A stretch of DNA of 1,248 bases from Escherichia coli (GTDB lineage Bacteria > Pseudomonadota > Gammaproteobacteria > Enterobacterales > Enterobacteriaceae). The stretch is taken from the NCBI RefSeq assembly GCF_003334335.1, contig NZ_QOWQ01000115.1; one strand, given 5' to 3'. Below the pieces are notes generated by a model. That model ran no database searches. It was not told where the DNA came from and was given only the letters and a program-made list of their open reading frames with translations. Numbering within the stretch: position 1 is the stretch's first letter; every line of letters begins with the position of its first letter. Below, piece by piece: positions 1 through 1,248 of this stretch. The translations under genes were made by a program, and so were the position numbers.

Positions 1-40
1 CTGCGATCAGCAGGATCAGCGCGCCGACTATCTGTAACAT
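1..40 (-). CDS. yeeR: Start of a downstream co-directional gene with a hydrophobic N-terminus (putative inner-membrane protein); 3'-partial, only 13 codons in window
   Basis: ATG at 38-40 (minus) preceded by GGAG with a 5-nt spacer. Translation MLQIVGALILLIA is strongly hydrophobic (transmembrane-like or signal-like). It lies 120 bp downstream of the flu stop on the same strand; in E. coli K-12 the gene after flu in CP4-44 is yeeR, a predicted membrane protein. The symbol is assigned by synteny and memory, not by a verified sequence match. Confidence 0.4.
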   Translation of the reverse strand, partial: MLQIVGALILLIA

Positions 41-45
41 AGTCA

Positions 46-49
46 CTCC
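46..49 (-). promoter_or_regulatory. Shine-Dalgarno sequence (GGAG) for the downstream gene
   Basis: Minus-strand sequence reads ...cacGGAGtgactATG; GGAG sits 5 nt upstream of the ATG at 40. Confidence 0.4.
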
Positions 50-115
50 GTGATGAATATCATGTTATTGTTAATGCCAGCGAATGTGGCGTTGAATATC
101 CGTTGCGCCGGTCCG

Positions 116-140
116 GGTCCCGATCATGATGACCGGGACC
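116..140. other. GC-rich inverted repeat / stem-loop in the flu 3' intergenic region (perfect 7-bp stem ggtcccg/cgggacc, 11-nt loop containing the palindrome ATCATGAT)
   Basis: Positions 116-122 ggtcccg are the exact reverse complement of 134-140 cgggacc; the loop 123-133 is atcatgatgac. It begins 21 nt past the flu stop codon. No U/T tract follows on either strand, so it is not a canonical intrinsic terminator; it may be a 3' stabilising hairpin or a partial terminator. Confidence 0.35.
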
Positions 141-160
141 ACAGAGAGGCGATGGTTCTG

Positions 161-1248
161 TCAGAAGGTCACATTCAGCGTGGCCTGACCGTTATAGCCT
201 TCAGCGCTGCTGCCGCTGACGCTGTGGACATAACCTGCCTGAACGCCCAGGGTGATATTTTCCCGGACACGGGCTTCCAGTCCGGCCTGCAGGTCCAGTG
301 ACGTACCATTCTGTGACGGTGAGAACGTCATGTTACTGCCGGCTGCGGCTGTACCCATGCTCATGTCCCCCCGGGAGCTGAAGGTGCGGATAACAGAAGG
401 CTGTACCCACCAGTTCACCGGCAGTTCACGCACACTGTGTTTGGCACTGCCGCGCAGGGTGTCACGGGATGAGGTGCCTTTACCAAAGTTCATATCGTGG
501 TGGCTGCCCAGACGGAAGCCGGCACGCACATGTTGTGCACTGCCATGCCCGAACTTCACATAACTGGCGTTATCCTGGCCGTCATCCAGGGAGAGTCCCT
601 GCCAGGTGTACTGCAGTTGCGGCTCCAGCATCAGATTGTCAGTGATACTGAAGGGCAGACCGGTTTCCAGCGAACCCAGCCAGCCCCAGCCCCGGACGCG
701 GAAGTCGTTATTGTCCGATGAGGCTTTCATGCTGTGGCGGGTTCCCTGGGCCACAATGTCAGCCCACAGGCCGGAGGCGTTGTGTATCAGATTCAGGTAT
801 CCGCCCAGGCTGCCGGCATCATCCCGGACCGTGCCGGCACGGGAGCCGTCATCATCCTTAACATCAACGGAAGAATGGCCAGCAGCACCATATACCCCCG
901 CGGTCACAGACATACCGGCAACCTCTGTTCTGAGCAGGTCACCCTCCAGACGGACGAAGCCATAGCTGCCGCTGCTTTCCGGCGTGGCTCCACGGGCAAT
1001 ACCGCCGTTGTTATCGTGACCGAGATGACCGCCCTGAATGCTGAGACGGACGCTGTTATTTTCACCGCTTACACCGGTCTGATGGCTGCGGGAGCCTGCC
1101 AGAATCCGGTCATAGTCCATTGCCTGTGTCAGCATGGAGGCGTATAGGGGGACTTCAGCACGATAACGTTCTTCACTGCGCAGATACCAGCTCTCATCAC
1201 TGTCCCGGTTGAGGGAGTAGTTAAAGGCACCGGCCTGCAGCTTATTCC
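161..1248 (-). CDS. flu: Antigen 43-type (AIDA-I family, type Va) self-associating autotransporter, C-terminal beta-domain/translocator; 5'-partial, gene continues beyond the right window edge
   Basis: Minus-strand frame is open from 1246 to the TGA stop at 161-163 (checked codon by codon from 1136 to 1246: no stops). The Met at 1135 has no purine-rich RBS upstream (cccctatacgcctcc-ATG), so it is internal. The protein ends ...SGSSAEGYNGQATLNVTF with a terminal Phe, the classic outer-membrane beta-barrel C-terminal signature. Amphipathic beta-strand-like segments are present (YGFVRLEG, GWGWLGSLETGLPFSI, HVRAGFRLGS, WWVQPSVIRTFS, ITLGVQAGYVHSV). The sequence matches my recollection of E. coli Ag43 (flu); allele or paralog cannot be assigned without alignment. 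Confidence 0.8.
   Translation of the reverse strand, partial: NKLQAGAFNYSLNRDSDESWYLRSEERYRAEVPLYASMLTQAMDYDRILAGSRSHQTGVSGENNSVRLSIQGGHLGHDNNGGIARGATPESSGSYGFVRLEGDLLRTEVAGMSVTAGVYGAAGHSSVDVKDDDGSRAGTVRDDAGSLGGYLNLIHNASGLWADIVAQGTRHSMKASSDNNDFRVRGWGWLGSLETGLPFSITDNLMLEPQLQYTWQGLSLDDGQDNASYVKFGHGSAQHVRAGFRLGSHHDMNFGKGTSSRDTLRGSAKHSVRELPVNWWVQPSVIRTFSSRGDMSMGTAAAGSNMTFSPSQNGTSLDLQAGLEARVRENITLGVQAGYVHSVSGSSAEGYNGQATLNVTF

What the first reader, a model, noticed from the sequence alone, without database searches (positions are those of the whole stretch)
1..160. Compact junction between flu and a membrane-protein gene; possible co-transcription
The downstream gene starts 120 bp after the flu stop on the same strand and has a good RBS, but I could not find a convincing sigma70 -35/-10 pair in the spacer by eye (the best -10-like hexamers are TATTCA/GATATT, 3 of 6 matches). 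With the U-tract-less hairpin this suggests the downstream gene is at least partly expressed by read-through from the phase-variable flu promoter, which would place it under the same ON/OFF switch.
Basis: inference. Interest (0 to 1): 0.3.

Follow-up and report, generated by a model that had tools for sequence, protein, structure and literature searches.

The report
Known flu–yeeR operon junction, leaky hairpin
This is the well-known junction between the E. coli Ag43 adhesin gene (flu/agn43) and yeeR; co-transcription of the two genes is already published, so the finding is ordinary, except that the spacer hairpin is where most flu mRNA ends.

Summary
On the minus strand, flu/agn43 ends at 163-161. 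A 120-nt spacer (160-41) follows, then a GGAG ribosome-binding site (49-46) and the yeeR ATG (40-38). No sigma-70-like promoter scores above chance. A GC-rich hairpin (140-116) has no U-tract.

The interpretation, that yeeR is expressed by read-through from the phase-variable flu promoter, is supported but already published. Moriel et al. 2016 showed an OxyR-repressed agn43-yeeR-irmA operon by RT-PCR, 5' RACE, promoter replacement and IS polarity. K-12 data agree: flu and yeeR respond together to OxyR, there is a "flu-yeeRS" iModulon, and an RNA-seq compendium calls the pair co-transcribed.

One correction. The hairpin is not inert. In K-12 long-read data (junction 98% identical), 403 reads from the flu start site end 3-5 nt past the hairpin, 103 end within 50 nt beyond, and 103 pass further. 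This fits the much smaller induction of the downstream genes (4.6-fold versus 63.6-fold; 12.9-fold versus 121-fold). All hairpin variants in 11 alleles keep pairing in the sense RNA.

A side observation: K-12 Term-seq maps an antisense RNA 3' end 7 nt past the same hairpin (window 147, + strand). Its origin is unknown.

Novelty: already known. Interest: low.

The parts
161..1248 (-). 3' part of flu/agn43 (Ag43 autotransporter, beta-barrel end). Stop codon TGA at 163-161; the gene continues beyond the window's right edge.
   Evidence: sequence, ORF; 99.5% identity to annotated agn43 in many genomes; K-12 flu.
41..160 (-). 120-nt flu-yeeR intercistronic spacer with no promoter above chance. Its length is invariant (120 nt) in 11 alleles despite indels.
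116..140 (-). Core hairpin GGUCCCGGUCAUCAUGAUCGGGACC: 11-bp stem, 3-nt loop, -18.4 kcal/mol as sense RNA, no U-tract. It marks the main steady-state 3' end of flu mRNA in K-12.
   Evidence: K-12 hairpin = 2074679-2074703.
108..149 (-). Extended stem around the core hairpin, from the RNAalifold consensus (A3 columns 20-61). Energy -30.3 kcal/mol as sense RNA and -22.1 as antisense RNA.
111..113 (-). Position equivalent to the K-12 flu mRNA 3' ends (NC_000913.3 2074706 and 2074708), 3-5 nt past the hairpin. Counts: 403 reads end here, 103 end within 50 nt downstream, 103 pass through.
   Evidence: SMRT-Cappable-seq Supplementary Data 1, PMC6131387; coordinate mapping.
46..49 (-). Shine-Dalgarno core GGAG of yeeR, 5 nt upstream of the ATG.
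   Evidence: sequence. Conserved in 10 of 11 alleles.
1..40 (-). Start of yeeR (ATG 40-38; MLQIVGALILLIA...). It encodes a membrane protein of unknown function, 838 aa in most strains and truncated after residue 507 in K-12.
   Evidence: No Pfam or NCBIfam family.
147..147 (+). Position equivalent to a Term-seq RNA 3' end on the opposite strand in K-12 (2074672, minus strand there), 7 nt past the same hairpin. The 5' end of this antisense RNA is unknown.
   Evidence: Adams 2021 Supplementary file 1, two entries, scores 24034 and 26941; offset calibrated; mapping.
34..63 (+). The only consensus promoter-like site in the junction (GTAACA-18-TATCAT), pointing antisense. It is not above chance and is listed only as a candidate origin of the antisense RNA.
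   Evidence: (score 7.74, reached or exceeded by 28% of shuffles).

Best explanation
The window shows the internal junction of the known agn43(flu)-yeeR(-irmA) operon. Transcription starts more than 3 kb upstream, outside the window, at the OxyR/Dam phase-variable flu promoter. At the end of flu the RNA forms a stable GC-rich hairpin without a U-tract. Most flu transcripts have their steady-state 3' end 3-5 nt past this hairpin. A minority (roughly 17-20% in K-12 in M9 medium) continue across the promoter-less 120-nt spacer. On those transcripts, ribosomes start at the GGAG/ATG of yeeR. yeeR therefore follows the flu ON/OFF switch but at a much lower level than Ag43.

Shown: the gene order, the spacer, the lack of a promoter, the hairpin and its conservation, the published transcript continuity and OxyR dependence, and the published 3' ends.

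Inferred: that the hairpin causes the drop in expression, and how the 3' end forms. The 3' end could form by U-less hairpin termination, or by termination or decay further downstream followed by 3'-exonuclease trimming back to the hairpin.
For: Anatomy. No promoter. No operon or TSS entry containing b2001 (yeeR) appears in the SMRT-Cappable-seq tables.

Hairpin as 3' end: TSS 2071316 to TTS 2074708 with 1006 / 403 / 103 / 103 reads and a median read-through of 114 nt. The K-12 hairpin ends at 2074703.

Attenuated downstream expression: flu 63.6-fold versus yeeR 4.6-fold; agn43 121-fold versus irmA 12.9-fold.

Hairpin conservation: 88 of 88 cells paired in the sense RNA, with a G-C / G-U / A-U series at one pair and three further one-sided changes that are all wobbles in the sense RNA. 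The hairpin occurs once per locus and always at this junction. The three-GATC switch lies upstream of flu in the strain with the identical junction.
Against: All the transcript data come from other strains (K-12, EC958, CFT073), not from the window's strain. The window's hairpin has a G-U where K-12 has G-C (-18.4 versus -21.0 kcal/mol), so its leakiness may differ.

SMRT-Cappable-seq 3' ends are steady-state ends, and the method disfavours very long molecules. No read covered flu plus all of yeeR, and the median read-through was only 114 nt. The true read-through fraction is therefore uncertain. I did not read the paper's Supplementary Note that defines the read-through counts.

The covariation evidence rests on about five substitution events and is not statistically significant (control (a) 245/500).

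The smaller fold-changes of yeeR and irmA could also reflect a flu-independent basal source of RNA. In EAEC 042, irmA has its own promoter downstream of yeeR.
Confidence: 0.75

Rival explanations
1. The hairpin is functionally inert for transcription, and essentially all polymerases read through. In this reading flu and yeeR are made in similar amounts on one mRNA.
For: No U-tract and no terminator-like site in the scan. RT-PCR continuity in EC958.
Against: In K-12, 403 reads end at the hairpin and 103 pass it. yeeR and irmA are induced 10-14 times less than flu. No long read covers yeeR fully.
Confidence: 0.08
2. yeeR is mainly expressed from its own promoter, in the spacer or in the 3' end of flu. 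Read-through from flu would be incidental.
For: Weak -10-like hexamers exist (GATATT, TATTCA). The compressed fold-change of yeeR (4.6 versus 63.6) would fit a flu-independent basal transcript. The ~55 nt of spacer nearest the yeeR ATG are much less variable between alleles than the rest of the spacer. In strain 042 the next gene, irmA, does have its own promoter.
Against: No site scores above chance. No TSS or operon entry with b2001 in SMRT-Cappable-seq. The 5' RACE of the polycistronic mRNA was mapped relative to the agn43 start codon, and an IS between agn43a and yeeR abolishes downstream expression. yeeR responds to OxyR as flu does.
Confidence: 0.1
3. This rival concerns the mechanism of 3'-end formation. 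The 3' end at the hairpin is not a termination point. Polymerases stop diffusely further downstream, by Rho or by untranslated or poorly translated early yeeR RNA, or the RNA is cleaved. 3'-to-5' exonucleases then trim back to the hairpin, which protects flu mRNA. This is the class described by Dar and Sorek 2018.
For: The abstract of PMC6061677 describes precise 3' ends immediately after stable stem-loops that lack U-rich tails, with those stem-loops protecting against PNPase and RNase II. That matches this case. In K-12, 103 reads end scattered within 50 nt downstream, and read-through reads extend a median of only 114 nt.
Against: The C/G ratio downstream of the hairpin is only 1.2-1.4, below the locus-wide 90th percentile of 1.47, so there is no clear rut site. 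No sense-strand Rho termination region is listed here in Adams 2021 Supplementary file 2, although flu may have been OFF in that culture. The alternative, direct U-less hairpin termination, cannot be excluded.
Confidence: 0.4
4. The palindrome is primarily a DNA-level element, such as a protein-binding site or a recombination or module boundary of the island. Its RNA effects would be by-products.
For: In K-12 it is a perfect 12+1+12 palindrome. Alleles are mosaic around it: LR31 has a CFT073-like left flank and a K-12-like right flank. Deletions and insertions are frequent in the flu-yeeR region.
Against: Natural variants break the DNA palindrome's symmetry but keep RNA pairing through G-U wobbles in the sense strand only. 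Mapped RNA 3' ends lie directly after it on both strands.
Confidence: 0.05

Closest known systems
agn43-yeeR-irmA operon of uropathogenic E. coli (Moriel et al. 2016, mBio, PMC4807369)
   Same: Same genes, same order and strand, same 120-nt spacer, same hairpin and same yeeR translation start (CFT073 agn43b junction). The operon is repressed by OxyR and transcribed from the flu promoter.
   Different: Nothing essential. The window is another allele: 12 of the 220 aligned window positions differ from CFT073 (base changes or gaps), mostly in the spacer flanks, and one stem pair is G-U instead of G-C. That paper did not describe the hairpin or quantify attenuation at it.
K-12 CP4-44 prophage flu-yeeR-yeeS region ('flu-yeeRS' iModulon; Tjaden 2023 transcription unit)
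   Same: The junction is 98% identical (H36). Co-variation of flu, yeeR and yeeS is reported.
   Different: K-12 yeeR is truncated after residue 507 and irmA is absent. RegulonDB did not list flu-yeeR as one operon.
[quoted passage not shown]
   Same: A stable GC-rich stem-loop with no U-rich tail and a precise steady-state 3' end a few nt downstream.
   Different: Rho dependence is not shown here, and no clear C-rich/G-poor rut region follows. The site lies inside an operon and is leaky, not at the end of a transcription unit.
Intercistronic stem-loops that set differential expression within operons, such as the REP hairpins between malE and malF (own knowledge, not checked here)
   Same: A hairpin between two cistrons. 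The upstream mRNA segment is far more abundant than the downstream one.
   Different: This is not a REP element. It is single-copy and found only at this junction. A stabilising role has not been tested.
Canonical intrinsic (Rho-independent) terminator
   Same: A GC-rich hairpin with RNA 3' ends just downstream.
   Different: It lacks the defining U-tract. About one transcript in five or six passes it.

Membership tests
agn43(flu)-yeeR(-irmA) operon | flu followed by yeeR on the same strand with a short spacer | tested here: met
   The spacer is 120 nt in the window and in all 11 intact alleles.
agn43(flu)-yeeR(-irmA) operon | No independent promoter between flu and yeeR | tested here: met
   No sigma-70-like site on the sense strand. 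The best graded score, 6.07, is below the shuffle mean. No b2001 TSS or operon entry in the K-12 SMRT-Cappable-seq tables. This is absence of evidence only; other sigma factors were not scanned.
agn43(flu)-yeeR(-irmA) operon | Transcripts continuous across the junction | tested here: met
   Established by look-up of published data, not for the window's own strain. In K-12, 103 reads from the flu TSS pass the 3'-end site. RT-PCR spans agn43-yeeR-irmA in EC958 oxyR.
agn43(flu)-yeeR(-irmA) operon | Downstream genes follow OxyR/Dam control of the flu promoter | not testable with these tools
   Published: yeeR is induced in an oxyR mutant, and IrmA is derepressed in oxyR mutants. I found no direct phase-ON versus phase-OFF measurement for yeeR.
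agn43(flu)-yeeR(-irmA) operon | Three-GATC OxyR/Dam switch upstream of the linked flu allele | tested here: met
   Three GATC sites at 0, +19 and +32 relative to the K-12 TSS. Three GATC sites lie in the matching stretch of SK1144 (identical junction), O104:H4 and CFT073. This lies outside the window.
Canonical intrinsic terminator | GC-rich stem-loop | tested here: met
   11-bp stem, -18.4 kcal/mol.
Canonical intrinsic terminator | U-tract immediately after the stem | tested here: not met
   The tail is CGGACCGGCG. The consensus scan found 0 terminator-like sites.
Canonical intrinsic terminator | Factor-independent termination | not testable with these tools
   Needs in-vitro transcription.
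Rho-dependent 3' end with protective stem-loop (Dar and Sorek type) | Precise 3' end just after a stable stem-loop that lacks a U-rich tail | tested here: met
   K-12 3' ends at 2074706 and 2074708; the hairpin ends at 2074703.
Rho-dependent 3' end with protective stem-loop (Dar and Sorek type) | C-rich, G-poor rut region downstream | tested here: inconclusive
   C/G is 1.2-1.4 in 78-nt windows, against a locus median of 0.96 and a 90th percentile of 1.47.
Rho-dependent 3' end with protective stem-loop (Dar and Sorek type) | Read-through increases when Rho is inhibited | not testable with these tools
   Adams 2021 Supplementary file 2 lists no sense-strand Rho region here. flu expression in that culture is unknown.
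REP / dispersed extragenic palindromes | Many copies dispersed through the genome | tested here: not met
   One copy per locus, always at this junction. The 200-nt junction query has one place in K-12 (H36).
Any Rfam RNA family | Covariance-model match | tested here: not met
   0 matches at E <= 1 on either strand.

The most novel reading that the evidence does not exclude
The conserved U-tract-less hairpin could be a dedicated two-way control point. In the sense direction it would set the Ag43:YeeR(:IrmA) ratio. A short antisense RNA that ends at the same hairpin (3' end mapped in K-12 at the equivalent of window 147, + strand) would modulate read-through or yeeR translation. That would add a second regulatory layer beneath Ag43 phase variation.
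Probability: 0.12. Interest if true: 0.4.

Novelty: already known. Interest (0 to 1): 0.15.

Why it matters
It matters little beyond correct annotation. Co-transcription of flu with yeeR (and irmA) and its OxyR control were published in 2016 and are consistent with several K-12 data sets. The useful addition is practical. Operon calls for this locus should say that the junction hairpin is the dominant flu mRNA 3' end and is leaky. yeeR, and in pathogens the vaccine candidate IrmA, then inherit the phase switch at roughly a tenth of the amplitude. RegulonDB did not list flu-yeeR as an operon.

Tried and rejected
- Rfam scan of both strands: no match.
- Pfam and NCBIfam on full-length and K-12 YeeR: nothing significant, so no functional clue to YeeR.
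- A stem sequestering the yeeR SD and AUG (window 66-34): -5.2 kcal/mol, reached or exceeded by 13% of shuffles. Not pursued.
- Plus-strand promoter-like site at 34-63 as origin of the antisense RNA: its score of 7.74 is reached or exceeded by 28% of shuffles. Not established.
- rut-like composition downstream of the hairpin: only mildly C-rich. Inconclusive.
- Covariation statistics for the hairpin: the shuffle control is uninformative (245/500) because there are too few events.
- TSS resources: the held Cappable-seq supplements and the ROSE supplement contain nothing for this region. Thomason 2015 is not held. The Dar and Sorek supplements are not held.
- A check of an ST131 genome (L006): it lacks both yeeR and the hairpin, so it could not stand in for EC958.
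- Large metagenome and genome scans were not run. The question was answered by the literature, and the cost was not justified.

Full report
**What is in the window.**
On the minus strand the window carries the last ~1.1 kb of an autotransporter gene, ending with TGA at 163-161. A 120-nt non-coding spacer (160-41) follows, then the first 13 codons of a new gene starting at ATG 40-38. The 1248 nt are 99.5% identical to genes annotated agn43 / Ag43 in many E. coli genomes. The 200-nt junction is 98% identical to the K-12 flu-yeeR junction and 100% identical to strain SK1144. In K-12 the downstream gene is yeeR, annotated 'inner membrane protein YeeR', in the CP4-44 prophage. In SK1144, O104:H4 and CFT073 it is an 838-aa protein followed by irmA. 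K-12 YeeR is identical for 507 residues and then truncated. Most of the protein's hydrophobic segments lie in its first ~160 residues. Pfam and NCBIfam give nothing significant.

**Check of the observation.**
Every item holds.
- The spacer is exactly 120 nt, and it is 120 nt in all 11 intact alleles I fetched.
- A GGAG core lies 5 nt before the ATG.
- The consensus scan finds no sigma-70-like site on the sense strand and no terminator-like site.
- In a graded hexamer scan using my own approximate weights, the best site that could serve yeeR is TTCGCT-17-GATATT. It scores 6.07. The shuffle mean is 6.5, lacP1 scores 9.9 and the consensus 18.4.
- The hairpin at 140-116 has an 11-bp stem and a 3-nt loop, at -18.4 kcal/mol (-30.3 with the extended stem). 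Its tail, CGGACCGGCG, has no U-tract.
- The 146-nt junction folds better than all 200 shuffles, z = -3.1.
- There is no Rfam match.

Moriel et al. 2016 (PMC4807369) defined an agn43-yeeR-irmA operon on four lines of evidence:
- RT-PCR products spanned the three genes in EC958 oxyR.
- 5' RACE mapped the start of the polycistronic mRNA relative to the agn43 start codon, and no separate start was reported for yeeR or irmA.
- A constitutive promoter in front of CFT073 agn43b turned on IrmA.
- An IS element between agn43a and yeeR abolished IrmA expression.

IrmA was derepressed in oxyR mutants. The CFT073 agn43b junction has the same 120-nt spacer, hairpin and yeeR-proximal sequence as the window.

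The K-12 lineage agrees:
- flu and yeeR rose together (63.6-fold and 4.6-fold) in a gcvB mutant, and both responded to oxyR deletion (PMC8614746).
- A 'flu-yeeRS' iModulon exists.
- A compendium of 3,376 RNA-seq samples scores flu|yeeR as co-transcribed (probability 0.62, not in RegulonDB). It assembles one unit from flu to yeeW (PMC10392735).
- The three-GATC switch sequence is present upstream of flu in K-12 and in the strain with the identical junction.

Hüttener et al. 2022 add that in EAEC 042 irmA has its own promoter downstream of yeeR (PMC9431211). That does not bear on the flu-yeeR junction.

SMRT-Cappable-seq captures full-length primary transcripts of MG1655 (PMC6131387). Its table lists a flu transcript from TSS 2071316 to a 'novelTTS' at 2074708. 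There were 1006 reads at the TSS, 403 ending at the TTS, 103 passing through, 103 ending within 50 bp downstream, and a median read-through of 114 nt. A second, minor TSS gives a 3' end at 2074706. The K-12 hairpin occupies 2074679-2074703, so these ends lie 3-5 nt past it, equivalent to window 113-111. About 17-20% of transcripts that reach the site continue. No operon entry contains yeeR (b2001), either joined to flu or from its own start site.

This fits the 10- to 14-fold smaller induction of the downstream genes. So the conclusion 'read-through' is right, but the premise 'no U-tract, hence no stop' is not.

Two caveats apply. These are steady-state ends from another strain, and long molecules are under-sampled. 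I also did not read the note that defines the counts.

**How the 3' end forms is not settled.**
The features match the class described by Dar and Sorek 2018: precise ends just after stable stem-loops without U-rich tails, which protect against 3' exonucleases. The scatter of ends within ~100 nt downstream fits trimming back to the hairpin. However, the sequence after the hairpin is only mildly C-rich, with C/G of 1.2-1.4 against a locus 90th percentile of 1.47. No Rho-dependence data exist for the sense strand. Direct U-less hairpin termination remains possible.

**Conservation of the hairpin.**
Among 11 alleles (8 distinct), the 11 stem pairs form standard pairs in 88 of 88 cells as sense RNA. 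As antisense RNA the figure is 94.3%. One pair shows G-C (K-12, CFT073), G-U (the window) and A-U (strain 130119). Two other core pairs and one extended-stem pair carry one-sided transitions, and all of these are wobbles in the sense RNA and A·C mismatches in the antisense RNA. Energies follow the same pattern: the window scores -18.4 as sense RNA and -14.3 as antisense RNA.

This points to selection on the sense-strand RNA structure. It rests on about five events, and the shuffle control is uninformative (245/500). I treat it as suggestive only. The hairpin occurs once per locus and only at this junction, so it is not a REP-type repeat.

**Side observation: an antisense RNA.**
Term-seq of MG1655 (Adams et al. 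2021, PMC7815308) lists a 3' end at 2074672 on the strand opposite to flu in two places in the 3'-end table, which covers three growth conditions (scores 24034 and 26941). I calibrated the table's sequence offset against a neighbouring entry. The site then maps to window 147 on the + strand, 7 nt past the same hairpin. The only promoter-like site in the junction points that way (34-63, GTAACA-18-TATCAT), but it is no better than chance. I could not reach a TSS data set that covers the region. The origin and role of this RNA are open.

**Verdict.**
The junction is an internal, leaky 3'-end-forming site of the flu-yeeR(-irmA) operon. Interest is low (0.15). The only reading with some novelty is that the hairpin, with the antisense RNA, forms a dedicated control point. 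I give that a probability of about 0.12.

Noticed in passing
window 147 (+ strand); K-12 NC_000913.3 2074672 (-): Published Term-seq maps an RNA 3' end antisense to the flu-yeeR spacer, 7 nt past the same hairpin, at two places in the table. The hairpin therefore marks RNA ends in both directions. The 5' end of this RNA is unknown.
   Followed up: partly
L001 3978 (K-12 2072596, minus strand), outside the window: Adams 2021 Supplementary file 2 lists a Rho termination region antisense to flu about 2 kb further along the antisense direction. This suggests antisense transcription running into flu.
   Followed up: no
L001 2699-2893 (isrC) and 2921-6040 (flu): The main SMRT-Cappable-seq flu transcript starts at 2071316, one base from the annotated 5' end of the 'small RNA IsrC' (2071317). 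It covers both b4435 and b2000. IsrC therefore corresponds to the flu 5' leader, not to a separate gene.
   Followed up: no
window 41-160; alignment A3 columns 7-16 and 59-72: The spacer is exactly 120 nt in all 11 alleles. In the CFT073/O104:H4 class, a 2-nt insertion just after the flu stop is offset by a 2-nt deletion downstream of the hairpin. This may be chance or a length constraint.
   Followed up: no
window 41-90 (minus strand): The ~55 nt of spacer nearest the yeeR ATG are much less variable than the rest of the spacer: only three substitution sites plus LR31's altered SD (A3 columns 79-133), even in alleles whose 200-nt junction is only ~88% identical. The cause is unknown. It could be a translation-initiation region, an antisense promoter or recent recombination.
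   Followed up: partly
L004 4129 onward (strain R3), L006 (ST131), L005 (LR31): The junction is a hot spot for rearrangement. R3 keeps the hairpin but loses the yeeR start through a deletion beginning near window 68. The ST131 strain's cah is followed directly by a DUF905 gene, with no yeeR and no hairpin. LR31 is a mosaic of the two spacer types and has an altered SD. About a third of genomes with a match cover less than 80% of the 200-nt junction.
   Followed up: partly
L002 6161-8677: Full-length YeeR (838 aa) has no significant Pfam or NCBIfam family, although it is very widespread next to agn43. K-12 carries a truncated form that is identical for 507 residues.
   Followed up: partly
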